NCBI GenBank assembly: GCA_963803365.1
Contig: CAWDMH010000011.1
Coordinates: 198,539-262,538, forward strand
Direction of reading: 5' to 3'
DNA length: 64,000 bases
Source of the DNA: an uncultured Planctomycetaceae bacterium
GTDB taxonomy: Bacteria > Planctomycetota > Planctomycetia > Pirellulales > Pirellulaceae
Every line of letters begins with the position of its first letter. Positions within the stretch are counted from its first letter, which is position 1. Positions 32,403-62,012 of the stretch are shown in pieces. The notes beneath the pieces were generated by a model. It saw only the letters and a list, made by a program, of their open reading frames with translations, searched no databases and had not been told where the DNA came from. Made by a program: the position numbers and the translations under genes.

Positions 32403-35400
32403 TTATTGGGCCTTGATGGAGAGGCTTTCGCTGTGGCTACTGAATTCGGGGGCGTACATACATTGAATCTCCGCGAAGCCGGTTTGGTATTCACCGCGCA
32501 GTTGCACGCGTGTCGAGTACTCGAAGACGTACGTCCCGCGTGGCAGATAATCGATGAAAAAGTGACTCGCGGTGTCTCGCGTCGATTGGTAGTACGCCAA
32601 GCCATCTTGATAACGATATTGCGATAGTACCTCGACCGGTTCGGTACCGCTGCCCCGGTAGTCCTTCATGTGCACGAATTCCATATCGCGATCGACCCGA
32701 AGCTCGATCCGCACGACGAGTTCGTCTCCGACAGAAACCGGATCGTTGCCGACCGGGACGAGCGTGGGGCCTTGGTCCGTGTTCTTCTTGACGTAGAGCG
32801 ATTTTTTAAGTTTCAGTGGTGTACCTTCGTACGCCGTGACCTTACTCATGTCCTCCAAGTACTGCCAGTGAAGGCTTCCCCAAGCGATATTGGGATTCGG
32901 ATTGACGACGGTGATTTGAGCCATTTCGGGTTTGATTTCGGCGGCCGGAAAGCGATGCCGATAATATCCCGTCCCGGCTTCGACCTTGTCGGGCGTGACG
33001 GTAACCGAGCCGAGTTTGACTTCGACGAGTTTGTCGGCGGCCAGCCAATTTCGCCCTCGTCCAAGCAATGCGTACACGGCGTCGGCGGTTGCTTTGGTGG
33101 TCTTCCAATCTTGAGTCTGTTTTTGTTTGACCAACCAGATTTGCAGTTCCTCGACCGCAGCCGGATCCGCAGCGACTTCGTCGAAGACTTCGATCATCAG
33201 CGCTTGCGTCTCAATCGGTGCGCGGTACCACCACCATTGCTCTTCGCCTTCGCGCCAGTACATTCCCATCTCATCGTCTTGAAGGCTGCGTTCGCGAAGC
33301 GACTTGACGATTTCTTTGGGTGTTTCTAAATCGCCGAATCGTTTGAGAGCAATCGCCAGGTGGCCTTGCGGCATGCGATCGCCAAGTTTGGGCCAGAACT
33401 GTTTGGCCTGTCCCAAGAAGTAGTCCACGGCGGTCTTGGCGGCTGGGTCGATCGCTTGGTCTTTTAAGAAGAAGCTGCGGCCATAGAGATAAAAACAAAT
33501 CGTTGGCGACAAATGGTTGGCTTCCGGATGACCGTGGTGCAGAATCTCTTGATAGGTCTCGTCGATCCACTTGTCGAGTTCCGCCAGCGACTTGACGGCC
33601 GGACTGATATCGACGTCGACGCCGAGGTGCCGCAATCGTCCGAAGCCGGTGGTGATATACAGCGTGATGAATTCGTTGGCGCGGCCACCGGGAAACCAGG
33701 ACCAGGTGCCGTCGACATATTGGTTAGCGACCAGTTTCTGCATCGCAATGCGGATTTCGCTGTTCATGCGATTCTCTTCGAACAGAATTCCGACGTTGCG
33801 ACGAGCCTGGCTTTCCTGTTTGGCCTCCAGCAGCCAGGGGGTCTCCTGAATCATGATGGACTTCAAGTCTTCGTTTTTCTCTAGCGGGCTGTCCAATGCG
33901 TCCGTGCCGCGCCATTGATCGAAAATCTTGCGGACCTTTGGATCGCTGTTGGCGATATGTTGCGCCAGTGCGTTGGCGTAAAGTCGATTAAACGTCTGCT
34001 CGTTGCACTCGTATGGATATTCCATCAAGTAGGGCAGGGCGAGCACGGCGTACCAGGCCGGGTTGCTCGTGACCTGTACGGTCAAGCTTTCCTGAACCAA
34101 CGATTCGGACTTGACCGCCTCGGCCATGCGTTGAAAGTCGAACTTGCGAGTCTGATTGCCGCGGATTGGCAGCGGCAGCGATTCCTGGACCAGGACGCGT
34201 TTGGTGAGTACGGGCAAGAAGCTTTCCTCGCCGTCGGACAATCGATCGGTCGCCCCAACGACTTTGTAAGTGACGACTCTTGCGCCGTCGGGAACCGTTA
34301 ACTTCCAAGCAATCGTCTGCGATTGTCCGGCGGGAATGTCGAATGTCTGGTCGGCTTGCGAATTGCCGAACAACGAATCGAGTGGCTCGGAATTTGACGC
34401 ATCAGTCAAAGAAAGTCGCCGTTCCGGATTGAGCCGTCGCGGATTGATTGCTGACCTTGGCGGTGAACTCGACTATGTCGCCCTCACGCAGAAAGCGCGG
34501 TGGGTTGGGTTGGACCATCAAATCTTTTTTCGTGACCACCTTGCCCGTCAACAAACCTGCGCAGAGGTCTCGGTTGTGGGCAAAGCCGAGGAACTTCCAT
34601 TCAGTGAGTGCCTCGGGCATCGTGAACTCGATAGAAACAACGCCGTCTTTATCGGCAATCAAGCTCGGGAAGAAAAACGCCGTTTCGTTCAAATTTCTTC
34701 GCGCGCTGACTTGGCTGAGATCGGGACCAGGAGGAGGAGCCCCCGCAGGTCCATCGGCGGGTTTTTCGATGCCGAGGTTAGCCGTTTTGGTCGCCAGCCC
34801 GTCAAAACCTCCCAGATCTTTCCCGCCCTGTACGCCAGACTCCGCCGCCGATGATGGAAGCGCCGAATTAAAATCGGCGGTCCGATCAAACATGCTCTCG
34901 TTTCTTAACCTCCCACCCATCCCTTGCGGTCGAGCGTAGTACCCAAATTGTGCGACGATGTCCGGTGAAAAATACCGATACGTCCAAGATTCGTCCTGCA
35001 AATCAGTCCGCCAGCCCCAGTACAAGTAGTTCAAGGTCTTGAGTTGGTTTTCGAATTGGAAGCTGAAACGCGAATTGTCAATTCGAAAGACATTAAATCC
35101 CGTTGGCCAATCGTGTGGCAGAAACGCATCCAGCGAAGCGTCGTACAGCGCTGCCACCATTTCCATCGCGCGATCGGCCGCCTCGGGCCCAGTGATCGAC
35201 ACGGACCATTTTTCCTTCGCTCCCGGTTCGAGCTTGGAAACAAAGTGTTCCCATTTGACCTTCAGTTCCTTGTTGCTCCAGGGAACGTCGACTCGAAAGG
35301 ACGTCAGGTAAGCGCGGTTCTCCTGAACATGCGTCACGTGAACGACGAATCCGCCGCGCATCGACTCGCTGACCGGAACGCGAATCATCTGTTGCGTCTT

Positions 35401-38400
35401 GTTGTCGCCGGTCCAATACGAATCGATCATCTTGCCGCGGTGTTCGATCTCTACGAACGCGCGTCCGGATTCGTAACCGGTGCCCCAAAGCCCGACAAAT
35501 TCTTGGCCGACTTCGACCGTCGCCTTTTCGGCTCGAAAAACGTCGGGCAGCTTGATGGCGAATCGATCGGCGTTGGGAGTCAGCACTTCGACTACTTTCT
35601 CGTCGCTAACCGAGTTTCCAAAGCGATCTTGAGACTCGACGACTACTTTGTAGACGCCGCCGCCTAGCTCGAAGGATTCGGTCGCTTTGCCTTCCGCGTC
35701 GGTGGTAACCTTTTGGGAGGTAACTTGTTCGCCAATGGGCCAGGTCTTGATATCCGACCAATCGGGAGGAACATCGGGAAGCTTGTCGAGAGTCGGATTT
35801 GGCCGGAAGTAGTACCAGCGCGGACTCAACTTGACTCGCGATACCGATTCGGGCGACTGAAGCCGGTAAACGTTGATGGTCGCGTCGGCCGACTGCGGCT
35901 TGCCGTCCAAGGTTGTCGTGGCGACGTTGACCGCGACCGGTTTGGATTCGGTTTGCCACTCGTCGATGGCGACCGCGGCGTTTAGTGCCGTATACCCGAC
36001 GGTGATCGTGACCGAATTACTGCGGGTTTCCCCAGTCGTATCGGTGACGTCGGCGTAGATGGTGTAGCTGAATTTTGGTTCGCTGAGTTTGGGAACGGTG
36101 CGATCCGGCACGGCCGTGAATTCGATGTCGAATGTGCCATCCAATTTGGTCGTTGCGGCGCCGTGCGCGATCTCTTGCGTTTCTGTATTGATCGGCCACC
36201 ACCAGCAACGCCAATACCACCACGGAGCGATTTGCACGCCGCGAACCACGCGGTACGCAACGCTTGCGCCGTCGATGGGGGCGGAGGTGTATGAAGTCGC
36301 TGTGCCGGTGACGGTGACTTTGTCGTCTAAGCGAGCAGCGATCTTGGGAGGTTCGACCTCGACATAGAACTTGGGACGTTTGTACTCTTCGACGTTGAAA
36401 TTCGTTGTGCCAGTTGATCCCGATGTAACTCGAATCGACATTTGCCCGGTCCCTCGGTCGCGGGGCGCGGTGAAACTTCCGCTGATCGATCCGAAGCGAT
36501 TCGAAGTCAGCTTGAGTTCTTCGATTTGCTGATTGTTGTAGTCGAACAAAGCAACCGTGATCGAACGATCGGGGATCACGTGATAGACATCTGCCGACTG
36601 ATTCTGGTCAAGCACCACTCCTTTGAACTGGATCGTTTGGCCGGGTCGGTAGATCGAGCGGTCGGTGAAAAAGACGGTCGTTTGTTGGTTGCTATCCCAT
36701 TGATGACCATCGTAGACGTAGCCGCCTTGTGCCGATGCGAGCATCTGGTCACCGTTGATTGCCCGAACCATATAGCGAAACTGTTTATCGCATTCCTTGC
36801 GGTAAATACCGTTTTGATCGGTGTGGAGCACCTCCGGCAGGGTGAATCGTTCACGGCGCTGGCGGTCGTTGACAACCCACAATTCAACTTTTGCGTCGGC
36901 CACCGGTTTTCCGCTGATTGCGTCCAGCACCATGCCTTCGATCACCCGGTCGTATCGGGTTCGCTGAATGAGCGCCAGCGTACTGACCCACACTTCGCAA
37001 AACGACAGGTTGTTATCGTTCTTGCCAAAGTCCTCGCGGTGGCTGGAGATCAAGTAATAGGAACCCGGTTTTAAGTCTTGCGGGATCGCGATTTTTTCAA
37101 CTCGTTCGCGAAAGTCCGTGGTGGGTGGCAGATTTGCCGACCAGGTTCGCGTCGGTTTTTCGAGGAGCAATTTCTCCCGCGCGTCTTGACCGATGTTCTC
37201 CGGCGACCAGTCTCCGGACGCAGTCCAGGTCGCAAAATCAAACGGCACCAGACGAAAGAATGCTTGGTTCACGTTGCGATACGTAATATCGATCGTCGGC
37301 AACGGCTGATTCCAAACTCGCTCGGTCGTGATGGAGACCGAGGGCGCTGCGATGTTCTTGATGATGTTTCGGCAGCGGTTGGCCAGGGGTCCGTCGGTGT
37401 GGCGGGCGATCGCCTTTTGGCAAACTTCGCGTGCCTCGACCGGCTTGTCTTGCGATTGCAGCAATCTCGCCCACTCGGCCGACGCGGCACACATCAACTC
37501 GTGATCTCCGGCGGACTCGATGAATTGCGCGAGGGCCGCTGAAAACCTCGCGTCTTTTTCCGGCCCGAAGGCTTCATCGTGTCCGTAAAGCAGTCGCTGC
37601 AAGTCGAGATCCATTCGCGCCGACGGATCATCGTCCCGGGCATGAAATTGCATCAAGTCTTGAAACAGCCGGAGCATTTGACGATCGGCGACGAATTGTC
37701 CGCGGGCAGTTTCCAAGCGAGAAAGTCATCGGTCGGGCCGAATATCGCGGTGCCGGCCGACAAATCGAAAGCGTCTTGGGGCCGCACTCGCTGTTCGGCC
37801 AGGCTGTAGAAGGTGATGGCGTCTTGCGCCATGAAGTCAAACAAGGTCGGCCGATACTTGTCCGGCGCGGTCCCTGCCACCAGCAACGCTGAGTACTTTT
37901 CGACGGGGATTTGTTTGAGTGTATCCGGGTCGGCCAGCGACCCGGTGAACAGCTTTTCGGCCTCGGCAAGAATCCGCGTCAAGTCCCACGTTTCAAAGTC
38001 ATCGCCGGGAGCTTGCACCGTCTGTGTTCGCTGTTGAAACTGCCAACGGTTTTGCTGATAGTAGTTCCAATACCAATTCGCCAAGATCGCTTTTAGGACC
38101 GGCTTCATTTCGTCGGGGTATTGGTCCAGGTCGGATTGCAGCAACTTGATGGCAACGGCCTGACTGCCGCCTTCGATTTGTGCGGTGATGACGTACTTGC
38201 GGCAGACCGCGTGGATGGCGTCGTCGAATGCTCGATCTTTTTTTGCCGAAGCGATGATCTTGTCGAGTTCCTCGATCGCCGTTTTGGGCAATGCTTTTCC
38301 CAACGCCTGTTCAACTTTTTTCCACATCGCTGTCCTGTCGTCGTCTGAGTGGATCGCGACTCGATACGTCGCGGCCGCAAAAACTATGAAACCTGTTACG

Positions 38401-38420
38401 GCCAGCAAAACAATGGCCAA
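32403..38420 (-). CDS. bacterial alpha-2-macroglobulin family protein (~2000 aa) with a CNEQ thioester motif; frame breaks near 37708 and 34408
   Basis: Three consecutive ORFs (37653..38420, 34402..37716, 32403..34409) read on from one another. The N-terminal TM is MAIVLLAVTGFIVFAAA. MG-type beta-sandwich segments follow. LMEYPYECNEQTFNRLYANAL is the thioester region. The C-terminal receptor-binding-like domain is also present. Confidence 0.85.
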
Positions 38421-38724
38421 TCGCCACGGGTCATTTGTTGTTATCCTATTTGATTGTTCCAGACGACGTCAGCGTTCGCAGCACATGTTGAGAAAAAGCG
38501 GACGCTAGAAAAAACGGAGGCTGCCACCGTCAACTTGAACGTTGGACAGTTTACCGCGAAGGCAAGTTCCACATAAGTTGCCCTTTTTTCAATCTGATAA
38601 TGGCCGACGCCAGCTTCACGATTCGCGGCGCCAAGAGATCGACAACATGTCCCATGCTGTCATGACGAACGAAGAACCCAAGTGTTACGCCGGCACCTTC
38701 TAAAAGGACAGACATCCGAAAAAA

Positions 38725-39603: not shown

Positions 39604-40676
39604 ATGTCACTGTTGTTAACCGTAACGAATGGCCCGTTGGTCGGCAAAAAAATCTGGGTCAACAGCGGCCAGACGTTACAAGTCGGCCGCACCGAATTGG
39701 CCGACCTACAAATCGAACCCGACAAATTGATGTCGCGGTTACATTTCGCGATTGATTGCGAGCCGGACTCCAGCCGCATCCGGGACTTGGGCAGCCGCAA
39801 TGGGACGTTTGTCAACGGTTCGTTGGTCAAAGTGGCCCCGCTGTCCAACGGTGACCGCGTCTTGGCCGGGGAGACAGAATTCTCCATTTCGGTCAAATCA
39901 CCCGGCGCCGGCCCGGCCACTGGCACCGCCCGCAAATCGTGGACGAAAGACCGTTTGGACAAGAAGACCGCCACGGGAGCCGCGGCTCCGCCGCAAAACA
40001 CAAGCCCCATCGTGTTGGACGAAGCGCAGCGGTTGGCGGTGCAAACCTTTGTCATGGGCCCACCTGGCTCCGCTGTTACGAACATTGACGAACTGACGAT
40101 GACGGTGCCGATGAAATTCTTCGAAGCGTCCCGGGGGCGCCGCCAAAACCAGCACAACCGCCACCCAAGCCACACGGCGCGCGCGGCTTGCGATTTATTG
40201 CACCGCCGGCCGGTGCGACTCGGCCGCTGGACTTGGCTCGCGTTCTGTCGCCGCGGCCGGACTTTTATTTGCTGATCAATCTCCAGAACATGGAGAGCGA
40301 AGCTCGCAGTTATTTTCTCAGCCCGATTCAAGGCAAGCGGTTTACGCACATCAACGAATCGATGGTGTTGGTATCCACGCGAGATGACGTCGATTGTTTC
40401 GAGTTGTTTCGCCGAGCTTGGGGACGCGACGCGATGATCGGGATCATCAGCCGGACGGCCAAAGAGAGGTTCGTGGCAACCATTCGCAGCTTTGAGAATT
40501 CCTATCGGCATCCCACCACGCTCCGCAAGGAAATCGACAAGGCTCCCCCGGAAGGAATCGCCCTGATGTTTACCGGAATCGATGCCGTGCTCGTGGAAAG
40601 CGAATCGGTTGACGGCTGGTCTTTGATCGTCAATCAAGCCGTCGAATTGAATCTGAAAGACTTGGGAATCACCTAG
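39604..40676 (+). CDS. FHA-domain protein with a Pro-rich linker and an unassigned ~160-aa C-terminal domain; frame break at the G5 run 40133-40137
   Basis: The FHA core is LQVGRTELADLQIEPDKLMSRLHFAIDCEPDSSRIRDLGSRNGTFVNGSLV...GDRVLAGETEFSI. The frame of ORF 40188..40676 is open from 40089 and reads ..VPGAPPKPAQPPPKPHGARGLRFIAPP.. as a natural continuation. Confidence 0.8.
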
Positions 40677-40684
40677 CCGCCCAT

Positions 40685-40795
40685 TGACAAACGACTCAGC
40701 TCTGCGACCCTCCCGAATGTCATTCCCGCGAAGGCGGGAATCCAGTGGAATGCAACTCTCGCAGTGTTGGATCCCCGCCTTCGCGGGGATGACGA
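40685..40795. mobile_element. MITE family A, copy A5 (termini degraded)
   Basis: gaatgtcattcccgcgaaggcgggaatccagtggaatgcaactctcgcagtgttggatccccgccttcgcggggatgac. Confidence 0.75.
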
Positions 40796-40818
40796 GCCGT
40801 TTTCTTAAAGGATTGCTC

Positions 40819-40945
40819 GTGCTTTGTTAGGTCTTAGAATTGGGGTTGTGTGCCACTGGCTTTGCCAGTGCGGGTCGGCAATACACGACGCTCATGTACA
40901 CTGGCACAGCCAGTGGCACCCCAAAATTAAGACTTGACATGGCAC
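40819..40945. mobile_element. MITE family D, copy D3
   Basis: gtgctttgttaggtcttagaattggggttgtgtgccactggc...cagtggcaccccaaaattaagacttgacatggcac TA. The left TA has degraded to tc. Confidence 0.8.
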
Positions 40946-41170
40946 TAGTCTGGACGCCGGATGATGATGTTGTGAGCGTTCCGAGTTCCACCGTCGTTGT
41001 CAATCGCCGAGAAACGCTGCGCCGACGTCGAGCGTGTGGAACGCTTGATTCATTCGATCGACTAATAGAGAATTGACGGTCGACGAACCGGTCACAAGCG
41101 GCGGCGTCCGCGCACGGCCGGAACGGTGCTTCATCTCGATCCATTTCTTGGCCACGATCTCGAGTCTGAC

Positions 41171-44100
41171 ATGTCACGACCTGTTGTTTCCAGCAAGAAC
41201 TGGCGATATCGGCGACAAGCGAAACCGGCTGGCCGCGGGCCCGCGATCGTCATGCTGATTCTTATCGGACTGTTGGTGACCTGGTTCGTTTTGTCCTTGT
41301 GGAAGGCGCCGCGAGCGGCGCCTTTCGTCCGCGTCCTTTGTGTCGAACGGTACACGAACGAACCGCAGTTGCCGTTTTTGAAGAACGACCTGGACGCGCT
41401 GGCTTCGGCATTCTCGGTGGCCGTGGATCAATCCCAAAAAGGCGTCTCGCCATCAGCCGGTGTCGGCAGCTTTGATATCCACAGTCAAATCTCAGAGACC
41501 ACTTTGGTTGATTTCGCGCCGTACCTGAGTCAGTTCAACAACGCCAAATCCAAAGACATCGCAATTCTTTACATTGCCGCCCAAGGCGTGGCGATTGACG
41601 AGAAGCCGTATTTGTTGGGCACGCCTCGCAACTGATTGATTTGCGGCGATCATGTCCGGTGGAGGGAATTCTGCAGCAAGTGCACAATCTCCCGGCCAAG
41701 ACCAAGCTCATCCTGTTAGACGCGGGCAACATCCAAACGGCGCTGCGGGCCGGGATGCCCATCAACCAGTTCGTCTTCCGCCTGCACGAACAGGTCAAGG
41801 CGCTCGACGACGAGAATCTGTGGGTGATTTGTTCGAATTCGATGGGCGAAGTCTCGAACGCCTCACTCGCCAAGAAACGCTCGATCTTTTCTTGGGCGCT
41901 GGTCGACGCGTTTGGCAAACTTAAGCGAGATACCCCGTCGGGACCGATCAGTCTCTACGATTTCTACGACTTCGTCTTGCGGCATTGCACGACCGCCACG
42001 AAAACCAGCGGCGGGGCGCTCCAAGTCCCGCTGCTGATGCGAGGCAAGACGGGCGTGATCCTCGATTTGCAATTGACGGATTCACTGAAGGAAACACTGA
42101 AGAAGCAAGTCGTTTTCTACCGCGACAAGGTCAAGATCGTGCAACCGGAAAAGCCCGCAGCGGCAGACGGCGCCGCAAAGAAAACCGCGTTCCTTCCACG
42201 CATGCTTCGACTAGAGTCTTTGACCGCGACCGTCATGGCGCCAAGTTTTGCCTGGACCGGGAGCCCGGCGCTCGAAAGCGGGGGATCGTCACCGCAGGAC
42301 CCGGATCGCGCGTCAACACAGCCATCGGAGAAGCCCGCCGCGTCGCCGGCCGCCTCAGCACCTCAGCAACCAGAACCGGCGCCGTCGTCAGCCGGAGATG
42401 GCGCGCAGGAGAAAACGGCGCAGACAAACCCGTATGTCGAGATCCTCAAGAGCCTGGACGAAAACCCGACGAGTCTGGACCAGGCGCTGTGGCAGAATTG
42501 GCAGCTCGTCGATTTACTTCAAAATCGTGAACGGTTTCTCTGGAGCCCCGTAGATTTCTCGCCCAATGTTTGGCGCATGTTGTTGGAAAGCCTGGTTGAA
42601 ACCGATCAGCAAGCCCGGTACGGCTGCCTGGGCGACAGCGATGGCGCGATGACGAGGATGCGGCAAATCAAGACGCAACTCCGATTGTTGCTCGACAGCA
42701 TGGAGGGAAATCGACCGATCGACAAATCGGCGATAACCGATACCAAACGCTTGGAAGACAGGCTGTTGGCCGCGTGGAATGGATTCGTACCGGCGGTCGA
42801 CGACGTCAATCGCCAATTGGCCCCATTGACGGCGGATCAAAAACAGATCGCCAGCAATTGCCTCACGTACGAATGCAAATTTCGAGATCGCGTGTTCCGC
42901 GCGGGTCAATACGTGCACTGGTTTGCCTTCGACAGCCGGATCGATCCGACCGGCGCCGTTTCGCCGATAGATCGTCTGTTGAATCAGATCCGCATGGAAA
43001 ATCGGACGGATGTCTATGCGAAACCGAACATCAAGTTGATCGCCGCGGCGGCCAATGAAATGGTCGAGTCCGACCGTCGACTGCGCAGCGCGGAGGAGCA
43101 GGTGTTTGAATTCTTTCTGAAACAACTGGATTTTGCGGTGGCGTCAAATCGCGACAATTTTGAACGGCAAGAGTTGCTCAATGGTTTGTTGCGGTTGACG
43201 GTGTTGCGGCCGGAGACTTCGCTTTTTCCGAGCGGAGACCGAGACAAACGGCTCAACCGAAAGCACATCCTGGAGACTCTCAATGACGCCATCAACCGCC
43301 AGAATCCAGATTTCAACCTCATCGAACAGAACTGGCCAAGCCGAATCATCTCCAACCAGGGCATCTCGGCTGCGACGAGCCAGTTTCAATTGGTTGCCGA
43401 GTTAGCCGGGTTGGCTGACACAACCCCGGCTCACGACAATCTCGCCATTCAACCGCTGACCGATGACGATCGACAGTCGGACGAAATGTTGCAGCAATGC
43501 AGCCAAGTGGGCGCGGCGCTCAGCGATCGATTGAAACAGTTCGACTTGGAAACGACTCCATCCGGTAGCGTGTGGCTGCAAGCGTCGCTCGGCGATTCAT
43601 ACGATCTACGCATTGGTTTGCAATTGGTGGACGCAAGCTACGCAGCCAACCTGCCGAAACTCGTGCCGGAAGAAGTCCTTGAACGAATCCGGTTTGACGA
43701 GCTCCCGATCGAGGTCAATCTCGACGGCGAGAGCAGCGCTACATTTACGGTGTACGTCGAAGGCGACAAGCGGAGCGCCCTTCCGATTCGAGTTCAAATG
43801 AGTGAGGCGGATCAGGCGAAAATCATCTGCCAGACATTGGAGGGACAACCCGCCGACTTGTTATCGGTCCCCGTCCGCGACGGGCGTGCCATATTTGACC
43901 TGAAGTTTATCGCCAGACAGACCAGCAACTCAGACGAGGACTTTGCCACCGTCGAATTGTCGGTCGATCAAATGCCTGAAAAGAAGCGGTCGGTGCGAAT
44001 CAGCCTCCCGCGCCCCGATTCGATCTGGTTGCTTGCAAAACAACAGTATTGGCTAAAGAACCCCAACGACTATCACTTGTCCGATCAAATCGACCCGAAT

Positions 44101-46017
44101 CAGTCGGCACTCGCCATGAAGTTGCTACCGTTTTCCAACTTTGACAGCTCCTTCAAGTTTGACTTGGAAAACCATTCTGGTCGAACGAAAAAAATCGTTG
44201 CCGAGTTTTATGCGGTGCAATTGGTGAAGCAACTTCGTCCCTCGTTTTTCGACTCGTTTCCGCCGGGGCGAAATTCGAAATCGGGAAAAGTTGATGCGGA
44301 GTTGCGGAAAGCGTTGGAGCAGGCCGTCATCGACGGACAATTGACCCCATTTTTCACCGCCCCGGAAATCGAGTTGACGCCGGCGGGTCAAACCGACTCG
44401 CGCAAGTCGATCTCGTTCAAACCGGCGCCGCCTCCCGCCGAACCGAAAGATGGAGCCGCTCAGCCGCCAGCCCCACCTCCCAACGCCGAATTCGATCTCA
44501 ATCACGGCTTCATCGTTCATGCCATCGTCGATGACGCGGGGATCAAAACGAATCGCTTTTATTGGATCGAATTTTCGCGCGTCACGAGCGATCGGCTCGT
44601 GACGGGAGATCCGAAGGGAACGTTTGACAAGAACGATGGTACGTTTCGGCTTCCGCTATCGGCCAACGTCGACGTCTTCGATTTCCGGCAAAAGATTCCG
44701 CTCAAATGTGAAGCGGCGGCGCCGTACGCGACACCCAGTCCGCGATGGGTGGCAGATCCTCCCAGTGTTCTCAACGGCGAAATCACGGTTCAAGTCCCCG
44801 AGGAAGCGATACGGACGATCAACGACACCAATGACGTTTTCGCCAATCAGATTTGTATCTCGGTCAACGATGAGCCACGCTGCTTCGTCTTTCTGATCAG
44901 TCCGCGCGACTTGGGGACCGAACGAGGCAACGTGCGGCCCGGATTAACCCAGGTTCGAGTCACCGGCGTCACCGGGATCGACGCCGATGGAAAGCCGATG
45001 CCCGGCATTCCCATGGGAGACCAATGGGTGTTTCGATCATCGCCGAGTATGCATGCAACGATCGCAGCCGATTGGCCATTCATCACAGAAAACGAAAGTG
45101 AACTGCTGCTTTCGGTGCAGAGGCCAAAAACGAGCCGCGCGGTTCCAGAACCGACACGATTCACCGATCGGCAAGTCCGATATATGGGGCACATTGCCGA
45201 TGGTGAGTTTCTGATCCAGGCCCATGTCTCCGATCACGTCCTCGACGTTGATACGGTGGGTGAAGGAGCATTCGAAATCCAGGCTGGCATGAAGATCGGC
45301 GAAGTTGTCGCAACCGGGGCCAACGCGGGTGCTCGACAAACGGTCATCTTCGATCAAACTCCGCCCACCGGGGATTTATTATTTTCCGATTTGACGACCG
45401 TGTCTTCGGCCTACGTCAACTCGGACGTCCGATTTCGCGTCGACGCTCAAGATGAGTTGACCCAAGTCACACGCGTACAGTTGGTTCGAGACACGCAACC
45501 CAACGGCAAAGTTGATGCCGAGGACAAACCCGTTCCCAAGCCATTCGAACTCCAAAATGGTGTCTGGGGACTCGAACTCAAATTCACCGAGCCCACCGCC
45601 GACGCAATGCATTTTTTTGCGACCGCCGAGGACACCGCGGGCAACTCCGCGAGTTTTGGCCCAGTCCAATTAGTCGTCGAAGCGGCCCCGACCAAACCCG
45701 CCGATGGCTCGCCCGGCACGAAGCCCACGCCGCCGGCAAAAAAGTACCGAGTTGTCGTGAACGTCGCGCTTGTATCAAAGCCTTTAGACAGCGATGCCAC
45801 CCTGGACACCATCGAACTCACGGGTTCGGGCGTCAAAGGAGTCCGGTCGGATGCCCGCGTCGGGTTCGACGGCGTCGTCGCCGGCACCTACAAGCTCGTG
45901 CTCAAAGGGTACTCGGCCACCCGCAAAAAAATCGCTGCGGAAAAAGAGATCATCATCACCGACAATGGAGAAAAGGGCGACAAGACTTTCTCCGTCAAAA
46001 TGGACTATGAAAAGTAA
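41171..46017 (+). CDS. membrane-anchored giant protein (~1600 aa) with an N-terminal caspase-like (peptidase C14 fold) domain that lacks both catalytic residues; frame break near 41625
   Basis: The TM segment is IVMLILIGLLVTWFVLSLW. The C14-like motifs are VRVLCVERYTNEPQLPFLKNDLDALASAF, DIAILYIAAQGVAIDEKPYLLGTP and TKLILLDAGNIQ, with SIFSWALVDAF...ISLYDFYDFV...QVPLL after them. The first two are in ORF 41126..41635 and the rest in ORF 41641..46017. The C-terminal segment YRVVVNVALV...GTYKLVLKG is CarboxypepD_reg-like. Confidence 0.7.
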
Positions 46018-46424
46018 ATAGGAAATGAATTGTCTAGCTCGGCGTCCCCAACGGGCTACAGCAACCGTTTGGACAGGAGGAATCGGCGAGGAAGAAATTG
46101 AAACAGTTGTGCCATCTCTCGGCCGGCGGCAAGAACTCAACTGCTGCTCTGTTTCAACGGTTGACTCCTGTTCGTTCCGGATCCGAATTGGGTCTCGGCC
46201 AGCCGCTTTTGGCGTGCTGAGCAATCTTGTCAAAAAAGTCGCGCGTGAGGGAGTGCCGCAGGTGCGATTGCGCTTTTTGAGCAGATTTTATCGCCGGATG
46301 ATATTGGAGAAGATGATGAACATCGGAAATCCGATAATAACGAACGTCTGCGTTTGCAGGACTGTAAACATTTGCAATCAACTGACGGCCGAAACGGCCA
46401 CTACGGTTGTTCGGGGGGAATCAA

Positions 46425-47798
46425 ATGAATCGTCGAAATCTGGTATCGATTCTGACGTTGTTTACGTGCCTTATTGCTTTCAGCCTGGGCTGTGTCGGTC
46501 CCACTCAGCCGGTGACCACTTTGGGCCAGAAGCTGGGCATTCCTCAGGCTTTCTTGTTGCTGCGCGACAATTTCACCAATCGCAAAGGGAACAAACCGCA
46601 ATGCGAGCGTAAACCGCCCTTGCTGCGAATTGCCGACCCCGCGAACTTGGCATCGCCCAACGATGCGATCAAGGCCGCAGCTCAGGTCAAGGCTGAAGAG
46701 GATCTGGCGCCGCAAAAGATCAAGGCGTTGAAGTTCCTGGCCGGAATCGGATGCGGATGCTACGACGAAGACGGCAAGGTCAAGAACGCCATCCTCGCCG
46801 GCTTGGCCGACTGCACGCCCGCGGTTCGGATGGCGGCGATTCAATTGATCGAAGCGACCCTTGCTTACTGCGACGACAAGAACACAGACACCAAAGCCAA
46901 GCGGTGCCCGCACTGTGGCGGCCGAGGCTGCCCGCTGTGTCAGTCCGATCGACGCGCTCAAAAGAAGAAGGACAAAGAACTCGCGGCGCTCCAGAAAAAG
47001 AAGAAGACACCACTCTGCCAACGTTGCCACGGCGCCGGCTGCTCTAGCTGCTGCGGAAGCTGCTGCTCGTGCAACTCCGCGGGCTGCTGCGGAAAAGACG
47101 TTCAGAAAAAGTTGAACGATATGGCGTACGGCATGGATGAAACTACCGGTTGCTACAAAGAGCCCGTTCCTGCCATTCGAGCAGCGGCGCAACGCGTCTT
47201 AGAGATGTGCCCCTGCGTGATGGAACCCGCCGCAGCGACGACCGAGGAACAAAAGCCAAAGGGCGATGTTCCGGAAGGTGGCCAAAAAAAGCAAGAAGGC
47301 GATAAGACCGAAGGCGGCGACAACCAAAACGGCGACCAGTCCAACCCGCAAACCACCTCCACCTACCCCGGAGAGTATGGGCCGGACGACGTCGATACGG
47401 TTCGCATCATCACGCCAAATGAATCGACGATGCACAATACGACGTATCGGCCCGCCAATTCCCAGAACGGCGATCCGACCTCGGGCATCGACATCCCAGT
47501 TTCCAGCCGTCGAACCAAGTCCGATTTTATCAATCAAACGATGACCACCAGCAACGACATGGTCGTTGCGGCTGTGGAAAACATTGATGCTTCGACCTCA
47601 CAAGTGGCTATCATCTTTTCCAACGAGTTGATGATTCCCGTGGGTCAAATGTTGCTGATTCAAACGACGACTGGCGAAGCGCAGTGCCGCGTGGTCAACT
47701 CAATGCCGGGCCGGTTGTACGCCACGGTCTTGAGCCACAATTACACTTCGACTCCACAGTCTGGCGAAATGGTTCGCTTCGGCGTGCTCTCTCAGTAA
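46425..47798 (+). CDS. Cys-rich lipoprotein with a HEAT-like segment and two DnaJ-type CxxCxGxG zinc-finger motifs
   Basis: The lipobox is LIAFSLGCVG. A HEAT-like segment reads KALKFLAGIGCGCYDEDGKVKNAILAGLADCTPAVRMAAIQLIE. The finger motifs are CPHCGGRGCPLC and CQRCHGAGCSSCCGSCCSC. The 457-aa ORF is intact. Confidence 0.7.
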   Translation: MNRRNLVSILTLFTCLIAFSLGCVGPTQPVTTLGQKLGIPQAFLLLRDNFTNRKGNKPQCERKPPLLRIADPANLASPNDAIKAAAQVKAEEDLAPQKIKALKFLAGIGCGCYDEDGKVKNAILAGLADCTPAVRMAAIQLIEATLAYCDDKNTDTKAKRCPHCGGRGCPLCQSDRRAQKKKDKELAALQKKKKTPLCQRCHGAGCSSCCGSCCSCNSAGCCGKDVQKKLNDMAYGMDETTGCYKEPVPAIRAAAQRVLEMCPCVMEPAAATTEEQKPKGDVPEGGQKKQEGDKTEGGDNQNGDQSNPQTTSTYPGEYGPDDVDTVRIITPNESTMHNTTYRPANSQNGDPTSGIDIPVSSRRTKSDFINQTMTTSNDMVVAAVENIDASTSQVAIIFSNELMIPVGQMLLIQTTTGEAQCRVVNSMPGRLYATVLSHNYTSTPQSGEMVRFGVLSQ

Positions 47799-52627: not shown

Positions 52628-53803
52628 TCAGCGCCGGTGACGCTGATTCCATTTCGCGATCGCCGTTTGGCGACTCGCCGGATCGTCGAATCCCATTTGC
52701 CGGTATGAATCGGCAGACAAATCTTGGTCAAAGTCCGGCTCGACAAACCCGTAATCCGCTGGCTGTTCGCCCGAGGACAGGATTAAGACGGCCAGCACGA
52801 CGTCCGACACCTTGACCTGATACGCCTTGGATTCGTCCCGGTTTTCGGCGTAGACGATCGTCGAGTCGTTCAGCAGCGGCTGAACTAGCCGTTCCAAGGA
52901 CGGATCGCGCGCTATCAACAAATGAATCGCAGCGCGAGATCGGATCGAACCGGCTTGAACGCCGGAACCAAGGACCTTGCGGCTCACTGTTCCCAACGAT
53001 TCGCCGATGTCCCAAATCTCGGCGATCGTCAAGGCGCTACCCAAGGATACGTCGGTCAAGGATTGACGGTCCACCCACGACGCGACCAGGTGACGCAGGC
53101 ATCGTTCCTTGATACCGCCCGACAATCGCTCGACGAAATCCGGCCTCCCCAGTAGTTGGTCGATCCGAATCCTCAGCGAGTTGGGAACCCAAAACGACCA
53201 CGAATCATCCTGGACCTCGCACGCCAATAGCAGACACACAACGGCCTGATCGACGACGTCGAATTCCCAGTCGGCTGCGTCCGTAAAATCGACGGCCAAC
53301 ACCGAATCGATCAACGTTCCAATGCAGGATTCGCGCAGACGGCGGTCGCGCGAAAACGCCGAAAGTTCTACCGGATAGTCCCGCAACAACTGCACAAAGT
53401 ACTCCCGAAGTTCGGCCGAATCTCCCAAGAGCGCTCGAAACGCCGACCAGCCGGGCAAGTCCGCCGCGGTCGCTTCGGGCTGGTTGGACAAAAATCGCGA
53501 AATCTTCTGGTCGAGTTCGCGGCTACGAATGGCGGCCAACACTCGTTCTGATCGCAATTGCGATTCCAATGCGCCGTCTCGTCAAAGCGCTTCCAGCCGA
53601 TCCACCGCTGGCAATCCGATCTCCACCAGCCGTTTCGCGGCCGCTTGGGAAACCGAAAAATCATCCGCACAAAGTTGTTCGATCAGGCGAGTGATGTCTC
53701 CATCCGGCGTCTGACCAAACGCCGATAACGACAGGACCACAACCGTCAGCGCCAGGATAAACCGACGGATCGCTCCCCACCAATCTCTTGCTCCCCACAT
53801 CAT
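52628..53803 (-). CDS. secreted hypothetical protein (HEAT-like N-terminal helices) interrupted by an in-frame TGA at 53582-53584
   Basis: ORFs 53582..53803 and 52628..53569 are in the same frame. The sequence reads ..AAKRLVEIGLPAVDRLEAL * RDGALESQLRSERVLAAIRS.. straight across the stop. Confidence 0.6.
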
Positions 53804-55038
53804 TCGTCAGCCTTCCTGGCTTCGTGCGCAATCAAACCGACTGGAATGGCCATGATCATGAACAAGTGTCGCCAATGGACCGTGTCGATTGAAAAGCTGT
53901 TCGACATCACTCCCAAGAAAATGGCCATCGAAACAATGTAAATGTATTGATCGTCCGCTTTGCGGCGAACGCCCCGCCACGTATCCGTCACCCAGGCAAA
54001 CAGAAAACACAGCAAGCCGATCATCCCCAAATGACCATGTTCGACCCACGTCCGCAAGAACAGACTGTGGACGTCGTGCAAATAGTTGTGCAGATTCCAG
54101 CTACCGGGGCCGATCCCCACCGGGTCTTGTCCAATCGTCTGCAGAATGTGTTGTTGGTTTTCGAAGCGAACGTCGTCGTACGATTGATACGCGAACCGAT
54201 TAACGAAGAATTCGGTTAAATCGGTCTCATGCAGCACAAACACCCCTGCCAGCACGATCAACACCCCGACGGGAATGAGTCGAATGATCAACGTCTCCGA
54301 AGCTCTGCGGAAATGCGGCTGCAGCCAGAACATCCCCGCCAACGAACCGAAGGTGACTATTCCCGCCAAATACGCGCCGCGCGAATATGTCATCAAGATC
54401 GCGACCGAGTAAATCGTTAGACAAACCACTTGCCACAACTTCAATTTCTTGCGGACGAAGGCGTCTGCAACCAACATCGCGCACGCCGCCACCAAGTACG
54501 GCCCCAAAACGTTGGAGTCCTTAAACGTGCTGCGAATCCGCTCACCCTTTTCCGTCAGCATGAACTCGTTCCAGTTGGGTAATACGTGCAACCCCGCCAG
54601 GATGCCGATGGTGGACGTAATCAACGCCCCAATCTGAAACGATCCGTTGAGCACGCGGTAGACCGCAGAACCATAACGCGCCACCAATGAAACAACTAAC
54701 AAAAAGTACAACAACAAGTAGACCGTGATCATGTAATAGCGCAACGACACCAAGACCTCGTACGCGACCGCCAGCGAGATCGTGTTCAACGCGAAAAACA
54801 AAAAGATGCCGAAATAGAGCAGTGGATTTGCCGGCCGAACCAATGCGAAACGGCCTGTGATCAGCATCAACGGCGCCACTAGCACAAACGCCAAATCGCA
54901 CGGCGCCGGCTCGCGAATGACGTAACTGCTAGTCGCCGTCATGAGAAAGAGACTCAGGAATACGTCCCACGGCAAGCCAAAGATCTTCTTCGAAGACCCA
55001 GTAGTCGCAATGCCTGCTGTACGAACGACCGATGCCAT
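53800..55038 (-). CDS. O-antigen ligase/polymerase (Wzy-type) family membrane protein
   Basis: It has about 10 TM segments. ..LMTYSRGAYLAGIV.. is followed by a large loop containing HNYLHDVHSLFLRTWVEHGHLGMIGLL. Its stop overlaps the next gene's start (ATGA). Confidence 0.75.
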   Translation of the reverse strand: MASVVRTAGIATTGSSKKIFGLPWDVFLSLFLMTATSSYVIREPAPCDLAFVLVAPLMLITGRFALVRPANPLLYFGIFLFFALNTISLAVAYEVLVSLRYYMITVYLLLYFLLVVSLVARYGSAVYRVLNGSFQIGALITSTIGILAGLHVLPNWNEFMLTEKGERIRSTFKDSNVLGPYLVAACAMLVADAFVRKKLKLWQVVCLTIYSVAILMTYSRGAYLAGIVTFGSLAGMFWLQPHFRRASETLIIRLIPVGVLIVLAGVFVLHETDLTEFFVNRFAYQSYDDVRFENQQHILQTIGQDPVGIGPGSWNLHNYLHDVHSLFLRTWVEHGHLGMIGLLCFLFAWVTDTWRGVRRKADDQYIYIVSMAIFLGVMSNSFSIDTVHWRHLFMIMAIPVGLIAHEARKADE

Positions 55039-55095
55039 GAGGATTTCGCTGTCCGACTCGGATTGGGGAAGGTTTCTTAGCAGCCCGTTAAACAG

Positions 55096-55195
55096 GTAGC
55101 GGAACGGCGCGAGCCGTCCGGTTGCGTTGGCAAACACATGGCGAATTGCCGGGCGGCTTGCGCCGCTTCGGTTCAATTAGCATTTGTGCCCATAT
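55096..55195. repeat. Repeat family C, copy C3, between the glycosyltransferase and Wzy-like genes
   Basis: gtagcggaacggcgcgagccgtccggttgcgttggcaaacacatggcgaattgccgggcggcttgcgccgcttcggttcaattagcatttgtgcc. Confidence 0.8.
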
Positions 55196-55218
55196 TCTCA
55201 ACAGGCTGTTAGGCGGAT

Positions 55219-56429
55219 CTAAACGAATGCCGAATTCCGGCGCGCCACCTTCCAATATAACTCCAGCGTCCCTAGGACCATCCTTTCCACGGCGAACTGG
55301 CGACTTTTTTCCCTGGCGGCCGCCGAGAAATCGGCCCTCATTTGAGAATTGTCGACGAGACCTTGGATGGCTTGTGCCAACTCCTCGGCCTCGCCCGGGG
55401 CAACCAGCAAACCGTTGCGGCGGTGATCCACGCTCAAACTTGCTCCGCCCACCCGCGTCGCCACCGTCGGTATCCCCAACGAAACGGCCTCCATCAGCAC
55501 ATACGGCATGCCTTCGTATTGGCTGGGCATTACGAAGATGTCGAACGCCGGCATGATCTGCGCCGCCGTCTTGTATCCGAGCCAATCGATGCGGTCAAAC
55601 ACTCCGCGCCGAACCGCCAATCGCCGAACCGCCGATTCCAATGGACCCGTCCCGACCAATGCCAGCCGGGATGCGCCGCCGCGTAACCGCGAAAACGCCT
55701 CGATCATTAGTAACGGGTTCTTTTGAGTCGCCAATCGACCTAGGAAGCCAATCACGACGTGCTCATCCGAATAGCCAAACGCCTGCCGCACCTGCCGCCG
55801 GTCCGGCCAATCGACTTGACGCAGTCCGTTCGGAATCACGTGAACCCGATCCACCGGAAATCCAATCTGCAACATATGCTGTTGCTCTTCAGGTGAAACA
55901 GCGATAACCGCGGCCGAGCGGTTCGCCAACGTCCGCTCGACCGCTCTGACTGCGAACCTCATCCACCTCCCAAGCGTGGGGTTCATCGTGAAGATACCGT
56001 TCGGCGTATACACCGTGGGAACTCCTTGAGCGACTCGTGCAAGTGCGTCAACCCGCCAGCTTTTGTGCTGTGGCCGTGCAGAATATCAAACGGTCCGTTT
56101 TGTCGAAGATAGCGACGAATGGCCCCGGCGGCGCGCCAATCGGACCAATGCGGCCAACGGTGCATCGGCAGGGAATGTCGCCCCGCGATCGCCAAGTGTC
56201 TCAACCGTTGGGCAAACGAATCATCCATCCGGCGATCGGAATAGATCAAGTGCGATTCACATCCGGCTTCGGTGAGCCCTTTCGCCAAATCCAAGACATG
56301 CCCCCCCACGCCGGCACAGGAAGCTTCGGTGACAAGCAGGACGCGCAGGGTCGGCTTCCGCTCGACGTCGGCCGAAATACGGTGCGGCGACGATAATTCG
56401 ATCGACGGAGGTTGAGGCAAAATGTCCAC
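55219..56429 (-). CDS. glycosyltransferase family 4 (GT-B); frame break near 56048; start uncertain
   Basis: RVLLVTEASCAGVGGHVLDLAKGL...ILHGHSTKAGGL is in ORF 55983..56606. A third frame reads ALARVAQGVPTVYTPNG and leads into ORF 55219..56013 (..FLGRLATQKNP...FVMPSQYEGMPYVLMEAVSLGIPTVAT..). The GTG at 56429 is the first start after the upstream stop. Confidence 0.8.
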
Positions 56430-56439
56430 GAATCCAACT

Positions 56440-61928: not shown

Positions 61929-62012
61929 TAGTATCAATATTGGGCCGAAAATGAGCCAGACCCCGGCTCGTGAACAGTTACCATCAGAGGATCAGAGAAT
62001 AGCCTTGCCGAA

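What the first reader, a model, noticed from the sequence alone, without database searches (positions are those of the whole stretch)
41171..46017. Membrane-anchored ~1600-aa protein whose caspase-like domain has lost both catalytic residues
After a basic N-terminus and one TM helix (IVMLILIGLLVTWFVLSLW), the sequence follows the peptidase C14 / bacterial caspase pattern block by block:
- VRVLCVERYTNEPQLPFLKNDLDALASAF (strand 1 plus the NDa..la helix)
- DIAILYIAAQGVAIDEKPYLLGTP (the family's ..lfYfsGHGv..dg..yLlp.D block)
- TKLILLDAGNIQ (the ..lliLDaCrSG block)
- SIFSWALVDAF...ISLYDFYDFV...QVPLL (the g.Ft.aLl..L...itl.eLy.yv...Q.P block)

The catalytic His position reads Gln (AAQG), and the catalytic Cys position reads Gly (DAGN). 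A protease-dead caspase scaffold is therefore fused to more than 1300 aa. That extension comprises a P/A/S-rich linker, a long helical region, several beta-rich modules and a CarboxypepD_reg-like end.

The gene sits on the same strand directly after an FHA-domain gene and before a Cys-rich zinc-finger lipoprotein. FHA/caspase combinations are typical of bacterial signalling and conflict systems. This exact architecture is not one I can name.

The domain is split between ORFs 41126..41635 and 41641..46017 by a frame change near 41625.
Basis: partly seen in the sequence, partly recalled or inferred. Interest (0 to 1): 0.72.

Follow-up and report, generated by a model that had tools for sequence, protein, structure and literature searches.

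The report
Giant membrane protein with dead caspase domain
The gene encodes a 1615-residue planctomycete envelope protein whose caspase-like domain cannot cut proteins; it belongs to a large unnamed family, some of whose members sit inside type VI secretion gene clusters, and the break in its reading frame is most likely an assembly error.

Summary
Window 41171..46017 (+) is one gene, broken by a single missing base at 41621-41623. Once repaired, it lines up without gaps against a 1596-aa Pirellulaceae protein.

Residues 50-295 have a caspase (clan CD) fold. This rests on an NCBIfam caspase model (E=8e-6), Foldseek hits that are all caspases, MALT1 or legumain, and a family profile that hits a genuine PF00656 domain. 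Pfam PF00656 itself gives no hit.

The catalytic His position is Gln138 and the catalytic Cys position is Gly186. This is a family trait, not decay. Among 109 relatives the Cys position is Gly in 88, and the His position is His in 80 and Gln in 19.

The family is large and unnamed. It has at least 301 clusters at E<=1e-30, mostly 1400-1900 aa, and the annotated members are all from Planctomycetota. The architecture is a basic tail, one TM helix, the pseudo-caspase domain, a linker, a helical domain and about eight beta-sandwich domains.

The FHA gene / giant gene / Cys-rich lipoprotein trio recurs in distant relatives. There it sits inside type VI secretion clusters, after vgrG and next to Ser/Thr kinases. 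No such genes were found among the roughly 35 window ORFs scanned.

At least eight genes in the window are disrupted, so the frame change is probably an assembly artefact.

The parts
41171..46017 (+). Whole gene: a 1615-aa giant type-II membrane protein once the one-base gap is repaired.
   Evidence: ORFs. The repair is colinear with P0001.
41171..41242 (+). Basic cytoplasmic tail, residues 1-24, carrying the family's W-R motif (here KNWRYR).
   Evidence: K/R counts before and after the TM helix, with 76 of 86 members N-in. The conserved [S/T]-W-[R/K/Q] motif is seen.
41243..41299 (+). The single transmembrane helix, residues 25-43.
   Evidence: Hydrophobicity scan. AlphaFold helix 22-43. No second TM segment was found.
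41318..42054 (+). Caspase-fold pseudo-protease domain, residues about 50-295. It spans the frame change.
   Evidence: NF047832 at E=8e-6. Foldseek top 50 are all clan CD. The family HMM hits the PF00656 domain of P0162.
41582..41584 (+). Codon CAA = Gln138, at the catalytic His position.
   Evidence: Alignments A1 and A5. The column is H 80, Q 19, N 3, Y 3. L001 has CAC here.
41621..41623 (+). Site of the one-base gap that shifts the frame by -1.
   Evidence: Nucleotide alignment with L001: GGCA-CGCC against GGCAGTGCC.
41725..41727 (+). Codon GGC = Gly186, at the catalytic Cys position.
   Evidence: Column is G in 88 of 109. Rare members carry DAC[HR] (P0010, P0049). P0162 has DVCR.
42157..42459 (+). 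Pro/Ala/Ser-rich linker, residues about 330-430.
   Evidence: Sequence. Poorly aligned and variable in length across relatives.
42475..43620 (+). All-helical domain, residues about 436-817.
   Evidence: AlphaFold model, pLDDT mostly above 90 in its first 150 residues.
43657..46008 (+). Array of about eight beta-sandwich domains, residues about 830-1613. The last one (45742-46008) is CarboxypepD_reg/transthyretin-like.
   Evidence: AlphaFold. Foldseek matches to MG/Ig arrays. PDB sequence hits to NOMO2, SdrD and Bap. PF13620 in homologues.
39604..40676 (+). Upstream FHA-domain gene, also frameshifted (near 40125). It has an N-terminal FHA domain and a C-terminal domain of unknown family.
   Evidence: Pfam FHA at 4e-14. 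Split over two frames relative to the 356-aa L001 orthologue. The FHA part is 33-35% identical to the FHA-DUF6931 genes of T6SS clusters.
46425..47798 (+). Downstream Cys-rich, HEAT-like lipoprotein, with two CxxCxGxGC motifs.
   Evidence: Lipobox in the sequence. It shares a conserved core with the lipoproteins that follow the giant gene in L002, L003 and L011, and with one in L006.

Best explanation
This is a single, functional gene. Its apparent split is an assembly error. It encodes a giant type-II inner-membrane protein with a short basic tail in the cytoplasm, one TM helix, and about 1570 residues in the periplasm.

The membrane-proximal domain has the caspase fold but is non-catalytic. 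Gly sits at the nucleophile position and Gln at the general-base position. The residues around the former active site remain strongly conserved, so the domain most likely serves as a binding or oligomerisation module rather than a protease.

Beyond it, a flexible linker, a helical domain and a rod of about eight beta-sandwich domains project across the periplasm. The protein is functionally coupled to the cytoplasmic FHA protein encoded upstream, which presumably acts through the conserved tail. It is also coupled to the Cys-rich lipoprotein encoded downstream. Together they would form a trans-envelope scaffold or signalling module. In other planctomycete lineages this module is encoded inside type VI secretion clusters next to Ser/Thr kinases.

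Shown: the gene structure, the fold, the loss of the dyad, the family, and the conserved neighbours. Inferred: the topology, the non-catalytic binding role, the physical interaction among the three proteins, and any link of this particular copy to type VI secretion.
For: **One gene with a one-base gap**
- Searches show the repair is colinear with P0001.
- Frame B stays open for 1458 codons.
- At least eight other disrupted genes lie in the same 64 kb. The alpha-2-macroglobulin gene is in three pieces. The FHA gene is shifted at a CCCGGGGG run. A sensor kinase has an in-frame TGA. DUF1501, CT_A_B and GT4 genes are truncated.

**Caspase fold**
- Supported.

**Dyad lost as a selected family trait**
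- Gly is at the Cys position in 88 of 109 members, an 80% conserved residue.
- The Gly of the 'HG' motif is 95% conserved.
- The most conserved block of the domain is residues 191-200, directly after the lost-Cys strand.

**Topology**
- Members average 6.1 K/R before the TM helix and 1.3 after it. 76 of 86 are N-in, and there is only one TM segment.

**Architecture**
- (pLDDT 82).

**Coupling to the FHA protein and the lipoprotein**
- The same order of FHA gene, giant gene and lipoprotein gene occurs in L002, L003 and L011, where the giant protein is only about 21% identical.
- A lipoprotein homologue lies 2.5 kb from another family member in L006.

**Type VI context in relatives**
- L011 has ImpE, two Hcp genes, TssC, TssB, TssA, VgrG, FHA-DUF6931, the giant gene, the lipoprotein, a second giant paralogue with a VWA domain, and two Ser/Thr kinases.
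- L003 has VgrG directly upstream.
- L005 has TssK next door.
- DUF6931 is reported downstream of vgrG in Pseudovibrio (bioRxiv 10.64898/2026.06.19.733351).
Against: - No type VI secretion gene was found among the roughly 35 larger window ORFs scanned with Pfam. Not every ORF was scanned.
- The relatives closest in sequence after P0001 are P0009 and P0012 (25-27% identity over the full length). They have neither an FHA gene nor the lipoprotein gene within 10 kb. P0010 and P0159 lack them too.
- The FHA protein of the window shares only the FHA domain with the T6SS-cluster proteins. Its C-terminal domain is unrelated to DUF6931.
- Intergenic gaps of 494 and 407 bp make a single operon uncertain.
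- The window tail has Asn, not Ser or Thr, before the conserved Trp.
- The N-terminal AlphaFold model has low confidence (pLDDT 57). Foldseek gave no residue-level mapping, so the dyad assignment rests on sequence alignment.
- No similarity to TssJ, TssL or TssM was found.
- That the frameshift is technical is inferred from its neighbours, not shown from reads.
Confidence: 0.62

Rival explanations
1. The gene is a genuine pseudogene. The missing base is real, only a 154-aa stub is made, and Gln at the His position is part of the decay.
For: The frameshift is present in the deposited assembly (P0004). The neighbouring FHA gene is also broken. A sensor-kinase gene in the window carries an in-frame TGA, which is a substitution rather than an indel.
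Against: After the shift, 1458 codons stay open with no further stop. The sequence remains alignable over its full length to P0001. Gln at that position occurs in 19 of 109 intact relatives. Disruptions are spread over unrelated genes, including a 2000-aa alpha-2-macroglobulin gene and glycosyltransferases. That pattern fits an error-prone assembly better than decay of one locus. The FHA shift lies in a C/G homopolymer run.
Confidence: 0.13
2. The trio is a dedicated part of a planctomycete type VI secretion apparatus. It would either replace or extend the TssJLM membrane complex, or act as a surface-sensing phosphorylation switch like TagQRST-PpkA-Fha1. The window copy would serve a type VI system encoded elsewhere in the genome.
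For: In L011, L003 and L002 the trio lies right after vgrG. In L011 it sits between the sheath/tube genes and two Ser/Thr kinases. L005 has tssK adjacent. The FHA proteins there carry DUF6931, a domain reported in type VI loci. Rhodopirellula baltica, of the same family, has many type VI genes (PMC5394234; PMC2660368). The family tail carries a conserved [S/T]-W-R motif that could be a kinase/FHA target.
Against: Only three or four of about ten examined loci show type VI genes. None were found in the scanned ORFs of the 64-kb window, nor in L001, L007, L009 or L010. The family has at least 301 clusters, which suggests several paralogues per genome with broader roles. No fold or sequence similarity to TssJ, TssL or TssM was found. 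It is unknown whether those clusters lack TssJLM.
Confidence: 0.25
3. The domain is still an active peptidase that uses non-canonical catalytic residues.
For: His is retained in 80 of 109 members. The region around the old active site is the most conserved part of the domain. A few members carry DAC[HR] or DC[NS]H motifs.
Against: The window protein has neither His nor Cys at the dyad positions. Gly cannot act as a nucleophile. The His column also holds Q, N, Y, A, L and T. No other Cys or Ser is invariant in the domain.
Confidence: 0.04
4. It is a stand-alone envelope tether or adhesin-like stalk protein, and its neighbours are irrelevant. The adjacency in window and L001 would reflect ordinary genome synteny.
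For: Window and L001 are syntenic over more than 20 kb, including unrelated housekeeping genes. The C-terminal domains resemble adhesin and NOMO-type Ig or transthyretin-like modules. The relatives P0009, P0012 and P0010 stand without these partners.
Against: The same gene order recurs in lineages where the giant protein is about 21% identical and all other neighbours differ. The lipoprotein family is otherwise unannotated and was found here only next to family members.
Confidence: 0.15

Closest known systems
Peptidase family C14 (caspases, metacaspases, orthocaspases; Pfam PF00656, clan CD)
   Same: It has the same alpha/beta fold and the same order of motif blocks, with a strand ending in (H)G and the next parallel strand ending in D-x-(C). 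A family profile matches a genuine PF00656 domain.
   Different: There is no PF00656 hit on the protein itself. Both dyad residues are replaced, by Gln and Gly. The domain is periplasmic, membrane-anchored, and fused to 1300 aa of structural modules.
Bacterial pseudo-orthocaspases (Klemencic et al. 2019, PMC6426788)
   Same: They are prokaryotic caspase homologues that have lost the His-Cys dyad and are presumed to be non-catalytic (abstract).
   Different: Those proteins carry Tyr and Ser in place of His and Cys, and that paper links them to photosynthesis. Here the substitutions are (His/Gln) and Gly, and the family is planctomycetal, giant and envelope-located.
NCBIfam NF047832, caspase of the EACC1-associated type
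   Same: It is the best-scoring curated model, matched over almost its whole length by the window protein and by every relative tested.
   Different: Scores of 22-50 bits fall far below the 140-bit cut-off. No EACC1 partner was seen.
Type VI secretion threonine-phosphorylation pathway and membrane complex (Fha1/TagH, PpkA with its periplasmic VWA domain, TagQRST; TssJLM) - from established knowledge of Pseudomonas aeruginosa and Agrobacterium systems
   Same: In relatives, an FHA protein, membrane-spanning proteins, a lipoprotein, a VWA-domain protein and Ser/Thr kinases cluster with vgrG, hcp, tssB and tssC.
   Different: There is no sequence or fold similarity to TssJ, TssL, TssM or the TagQRST proteins. 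The FHA protein scores 31.5 bits against a cut-off of 120 for TagH. The window has no type VI genes among the ORFs scanned.
Pseudo-caspase and scaffold paradigms in eukaryotes (cFLIP; the scaffold role of MALT1) - from general knowledge
   Same: A caspase fold is used as an interaction platform. MALT1 is among the best structural matches.
   Different: The domain context and cell biology are unrelated, and no death-fold or Ig partners of that kind are present.

Membership tests
Peptidase C14 (Pfam PF00656) | A significant match to the PF00656 profile. | tested here: not met
   No Pfam family at E<=10 for the repaired N-terminal 352 aa. The relative P0049 reaches only E=0.0034, 17.5 bits.
Peptidase C14 (Pfam PF00656) | The caspase/haemoglobinase fold (clan CD). 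| tested here: met
   The Foldseek top 50 are all caspase-4/6/7/8/9/11, Dronc, MALT1 or legumain, with best E=3e-6 and TM 0.33-0.55. The model has low confidence (pLDDT 57, pTM 0.61).
Peptidase C14 (Pfam PF00656) | Homology to a bona fide member at profile level. | tested here: met
   The family N-terminal HMM hits P0162 at 236-460 (63.8 bits). That region is the protein's PF00656 domain at 237-466 (55.2 bits, above the cut-off).
Peptidase C14 (Pfam PF00656) | The catalytic His-Cys dyad. | tested here: not met
   Gln138 and Gly186 occupy those positions. Family columns are H80/Q19/other 10 and G88/A6/C2/other 13.
NF047832 caspase, EACC1-associated type | A score at or above the curated cut-off of 140 bits. 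| tested here: not met
   25.5 bits for the window protein, and 22-50 bits for relatives.
Pseudo-orthocaspases (PMC6426788) | Tyr and Ser in place of the His-Cys dyad in a p20 domain. | tested here: not met
   The substitutions here are Gln (or His retained) and Gly. The definition is taken from the paper's abstract.
Type VI secretion system component | Encoded in a cluster with core tss, hcp or vgrG genes. | tested here: not met
   None were found among about 35 larger ORFs of the 64-kb window. The feature is met for relatives L011, L003 and L005.
Type VI secretion system component | Similarity to a known membrane-complex protein (TssJ, TssL or TssM), or an FHA partner that qualifies as TagH (TIGR03354). 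| tested here: not met
   No such Pfam, NCBIfam, PDB-sequence or Foldseek match for the giant protein. The FHA protein scores 31.5 bits against a cut-off of 120.25.
Type VI secretion system component | Required for Hcp/VgrG secretion or sheath assembly. | not testable with these tools
   This needs genetics in a tractable planctomycete.
Known anti-phage defence systems (PADLOC) | A match of any trio protein to a PADLOC model. | tested here: not met
   No hit at E<=0.01 for the five protein segments tested.

The most novel reading that the evidence does not exclude
The FHA protein, the giant periplasmic pseudo-caspase and the Cys-rich lipoprotein form a planctomycete-specific trans-envelope module. 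This module anchors or switches on the type VI secretion apparatus across the unusually wide planctomycetal periplasm. It would be a lineage-specific counterpart of TssJLM or of the TagQRST-PpkA-Fha1 switch, with the dead caspase domain as its periplasmic docking platform and the conserved [S/T]-W-R tail as the phospho-dependent FHA docking site. The window holds a copy that acts on a type VI system encoded elsewhere, or one that has been co-opted for another envelope task.
Probability: 0.22. Interest if true: 0.8.

Novelty: new variant of a known kind. Interest (0 to 1): 0.55.

Why it matters
Catalytically dead caspase homologues are already known in bacteria. This result defines something further: a large family with no name or Pfam model, where annotated always from Planctomycetota. 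In it, the nucleophile has been replaced by a conserved glycine, and the domain is built into a 1400-1900-aa periplasm-spanning protein.

The conserved pairing with an FHA protein and an unannotated lipoprotein, and its position inside type VI secretion clusters in some lineages, gives a concrete candidate to test. That candidate could explain how planctomycetes, with their atypical envelope, anchor or regulate a contractile secretion machine.

There is also a practical warning. The region comes from an assembly with frequent frame errors, so split genes here should not be read as pseudogenes.

Tried and rejected
- **Pfam on the repaired N-terminus and on the 1458-aa ORF:** no family at all.
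- **PDB sequence search with a five-sequence N-terminal profile:** only chance antibody hits.
- **Word-indexed protein searches:** only 3, 2 and 9 proteins were returned, which wrongly suggested a very rare family. The exhaustive HMMER search corrected this.
- **Scans of genome and metagenome collections by conserved peptides:** each returned one locus only.
- **Exact look-ups of the window lipoprotein and of P0004:** nothing was found, so the source record of the window could not be read.
- **hhalign of the window FHA C-terminal domain against DUF6931:** no relationship.
- **PADLOC:** no defence-system match.
- **Rfam and the promoter/terminator scan around the gene:** nothing above background.
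- **Foldseek and PDB sequence search of the C-terminal 1185 aa:** only generic tandem beta-sandwich arrays (complement C3/C5, alpha-2-macroglobulin, NOMO2, SdrD). There was no TssM-like match, and global TM-scores were about 0.1.
- **Programmed -1 frameshifting:** rejected, because there is no slippery heptamer at 41612-41630 and all relatives encode the protein in one frame.
- **Another copy of the family in the window:** none.

Full report
**Gene structure**

The second frame is open from 41599. A nucleotide alignment with the orthologous gene of a Pirellulaceae metagenome-assembled genome (L001, JBGSLW010000162.1) shows one missing base in the window. The window reads GGCA-CGCC where the relative reads GGCAGTGCC, at 41621-41623.

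Joining the frames there gives a 1615-aa protein starting at ATG 41171. It aligns with the 1596-aa protein P0001 over its whole length at 40% identity, with no gap at the junction. There is no slippery sequence at the site, and all relatives use one frame, so programmed frameshifting is not indicated. The deposited assembly already carries the break, because the 154-aa frame-A product is on record (P0004, contig of 330,716 bp).

**Is the break real?**

The window is full of similar damage:
- The upstream FHA gene is split over two frames relative to its 356-aa orthologue. The shift lies at a CCCGGGGG run.
- An alpha-2-macroglobulin-family gene of about 2000 aa is cut into three overlapping ORFs (32403-38468, minus strand).
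- A sensor kinase has an in-frame TGA inside its HisKA domain (3729-3731).
- DUF1501, CT_A_B and GT4 genes are truncated within their domains.

With at least eight disruptions in 64 kb, and 1458 uninterrupted codons after the shift, an error-prone assembly is the most economical explanation. This is an inference. Only reads or resequencing can settle it.

**The caspase-like domain**

Pfam finds nothing in the protein, not even PF00656 at E<=10. Three independent lines still support the caspase relationship:
- The NCBIfam model NF047832 (caspase, EACC1-associated type) matches residues 58-272 over positions 8-207 of its 211, at E=8e-6. Five relatives and a paralogue match the same model at 7e-5 to 4e-13. 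All of these fall far below the 140-bit membership cut-off.
- An AlphaFold model of residues 1-325 was made from only five sequences (pLDDT 57, pTM 0.61). It shows the expected alternation of strands and helices. Its Foldseek PDB hits are exclusively caspases, MALT1 paracaspase and legumain in the top 50, with best E=3e-6 and TM 0.33-0.55.
- A profile of the family's N-terminal domain hits residues 236-460 of P0162, a TPR protein, at 63.8 bits. That region is exactly its Pfam Peptidase_C14 domain (237-466, 55.2 bits).

**The dyad**

In the model, strand 130-136 (DIAILYI) is followed by A-Q138-G, and strand 178-184 (TKLILLD) by A-G186-N. These are the places where C14 enzymes carry H-G and D-x-C.

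In an alignment of 109 family representatives, the His column reads H 80, Q 19, N 3, Y 3, A 2, L 1, T 1. The Cys column reads G 88, A 6, N 3, D 3, C 2, and others. Only five members have a Cys at either of the two positions after the Asp, among them P0010 (LVDACH) and P0049 (LLDACR). P0162 has DVCR at the corresponding place. HMMER's own alignment is offset there by one residue, so the Gly-to-Cys equivalence rests on the motif and on those rare DAC members.

Loss of the Cys is a nearly universal and conserved feature of the family, with Gly186 at 80% and the Gly of 'HG' at 95%. Gln at the His position is a common variant rather than a sign of decay or a sequencing error. The most conserved ten-residue block of the domain is 191-200, just after the lost-Cys strand. 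This fits a retained binding groove (inference).

**The family**

The word-indexed searches returned almost nothing. An exhaustive HMMER search of 1.84 billion cluster representatives with the N-terminal profile found 7988 proteins at E<=1e-3, 1828 at E<=1e-10 and 301 at E<=1e-30. The best 150 are mostly 1400-1900 aa, with the domain at the N-terminus. The weakest tier probably includes ordinary C14 peptidases. Where sources name members, they are 'hypothetical protein' from Planctomycetota.

**Architecture and topology**

There is one hydrophobic segment. Members average 6.1 Lys/Arg in the 25 residues before it and 1.3 after it, and 76 of 86 are N-in. The pseudo-caspase domain and everything after it are therefore predicted to be periplasmic.

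The tail carries a conserved [S/T]-W-[R/K/Q] motif, which in the window reads KNWRYR.

A second AlphaFold model covers residues 431-1615, built from 63 sequences (pLDDT 82). It shows a helical domain (about 436-817) followed by about eight beta-sandwich domains (about 830-1613). Foldseek finds only generic tandem MG/Ig arrays, with global TM about 0.1. A PDB sequence search matches only the last domains, to NOMO2, SdrD and Bap. Pfam CarboxypepD_reg is seen in homologues but not in the window protein.

**Neighbourhood**

Window and L001 are syntenic for more than 20 kb, so their shared FHA / giant / lipoprotein order is uninformative on its own.

The same order also occurs in L002, L003 and L011, where the giant protein is only about 21% identical. 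Upstream there is an FHA-like protein, 33-35% identical in the FHA part but carrying a DUF6931 C-terminus. Downstream is a lipoprotein with the same conserved core, PP.L..DPANL...QKI.AL..GC.CY...DC..VR. L006 has the lipoprotein 2.5 kb from another family member.

L011 is a type VI secretion cluster. It contains ImpE, two Hcp genes, TssC, TssB and TssA on one strand. On the other strand it has VgrG, FHA-DUF6931, the giant protein, the lipoprotein, and a second 1747-aa paralogue with an intact HG/DC motif and a VWA domain. Two Ser/Thr kinases follow on the opposite strand. L003 has VgrG directly upstream, and L005 has TssK adjacent. DUF6931 has been noted downstream of vgrG in Pseudovibrio.

Against a general link:
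- The roughly 35 window ORFs scanned with Pfam include no type VI gene.
- The loci of P0009, P0012, P0010 and P0159 have neither the FHA gene nor the lipoprotein gene.
- The window FHA protein's C-terminal domain is unrelated to DUF6931.
- No PADLOC model matches the trio.

**Interpretation**

The best-supported reading is a non-catalytic caspase-fold module at the base of an inner-membrane-anchored, periplasm-spanning structural protein. This protein works with a cytoplasmic FHA protein and a lipoprotein. A role in anchoring or switching type VI secretion is supported for some relatives and remains a hypothesis for this copy.

Known bacterial pseudo-orthocaspases (PMC6426788) show that dead caspase homologues are not new in kind. 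The substitution pattern, the size, the location and the gene context are new.

I rate this a new variant of a known kind, with moderate interest. It would rise to high interest if the trio proves to be a planctomycete-specific envelope module of the type VI machine.

Noticed in passing
window 32403-38468 (-): An alpha-2-macroglobulin-family gene of about 2000 aa (MG2, A2M_BRD, A2M and bMG10 domains) is cut into three overlapping ORFs by two frame changes, near 34402-34472 and 37653-37725.
   Followed up: partly
window 39604-40676 (+): The FHA gene next to the finding is itself frameshifted at a CCCGGGGG run near 40125. Its 160-aa C-terminal domain is 68% identical to the L001 orthologue, has no Pfam family, and is unrelated to DUF6931.
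   Followed up: yes
window 3237-4640 (-): A sensor histidine kinase (2CSK_N, HAMP, HisKA) carries an in-frame TGA at 3729-3731, in the middle of the HisKA domain (…ALRRN*AAPEYQ…). This is a substitution-type disruption, not an indel.
   Followed up: partly
window 11710-12897, 15619-16815, 17935-18998, 55219-56606 (all -): There are further truncated or chimeric reading frames. One ORF holds the C-terminal half of PfkB followed by an alpha/beta hydrolase. DUF1501 is cut at profile position 225 of 390. CT_A_B lacks its first 70 positions. A GT4 glycosyltransferase lacks its N-terminal half. Together they point to an assembly with frequent errors.
   Followed up: partly
window 41201-41209 (tail of the giant protein) and family alignment A5: The cytoplasmic tail of the family carries a conserved [S/T]-W-[R/K/Q] motif 15-25 residues before the TM helix. 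It is a candidate docking or phosphorylation site. The window has Asn in place of the Ser/Thr.
   Followed up: partly
window 46425-47798 (+): The lipoprotein shares a strongly conserved core with lipoproteins in type VI clusters, and that core has no Pfam family. Only the window and L001 versions carry an insertion with two CxxCxGxGC motifs resembling DnaJ-type zinc fingers. The type VI cluster versions instead carry a C-terminal PPIase (Rotamase_2) domain.
   Followed up: partly
L011 17712-22955 and L002 8568-10145: In the type VI clusters a second giant paralogue follows the lipoprotein. It has a TM helix, a caspase-like domain with an intact-looking HG / VDCAR motif, and a VWA domain. It is flanked by two Ser/Thr kinases, one of them fused to WD40 repeats. 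P0010 (LVDACH) is related to this paralogue.
   Followed up: partly
window 40677-41170 and 46018-46424: The intergenic gaps on either side of the giant gene are unusually long (494 and 407 bp, against 96 and 354 bp in L001). There is no Rfam match and no promoter or terminator signal above background.
   Followed up: partly
window 53800-63050: A cluster of the exopolysaccharide or O-antigen type lies here, with Wzy_C ligase/polymerase, a GT4 glycosyltransferase, a Bac_transf priming transferase, a GNVR chain-length determinant fragment and a polysaccharide deacetylase.
   Followed up: no
L005 2405-6200: Another family member, next to tssK, is itself fragmented over several frames in a 'contig_' type assembly. 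It has Asn and Gly at the dyad positions (YLTCNC…, LDSG).
   Followed up: partly
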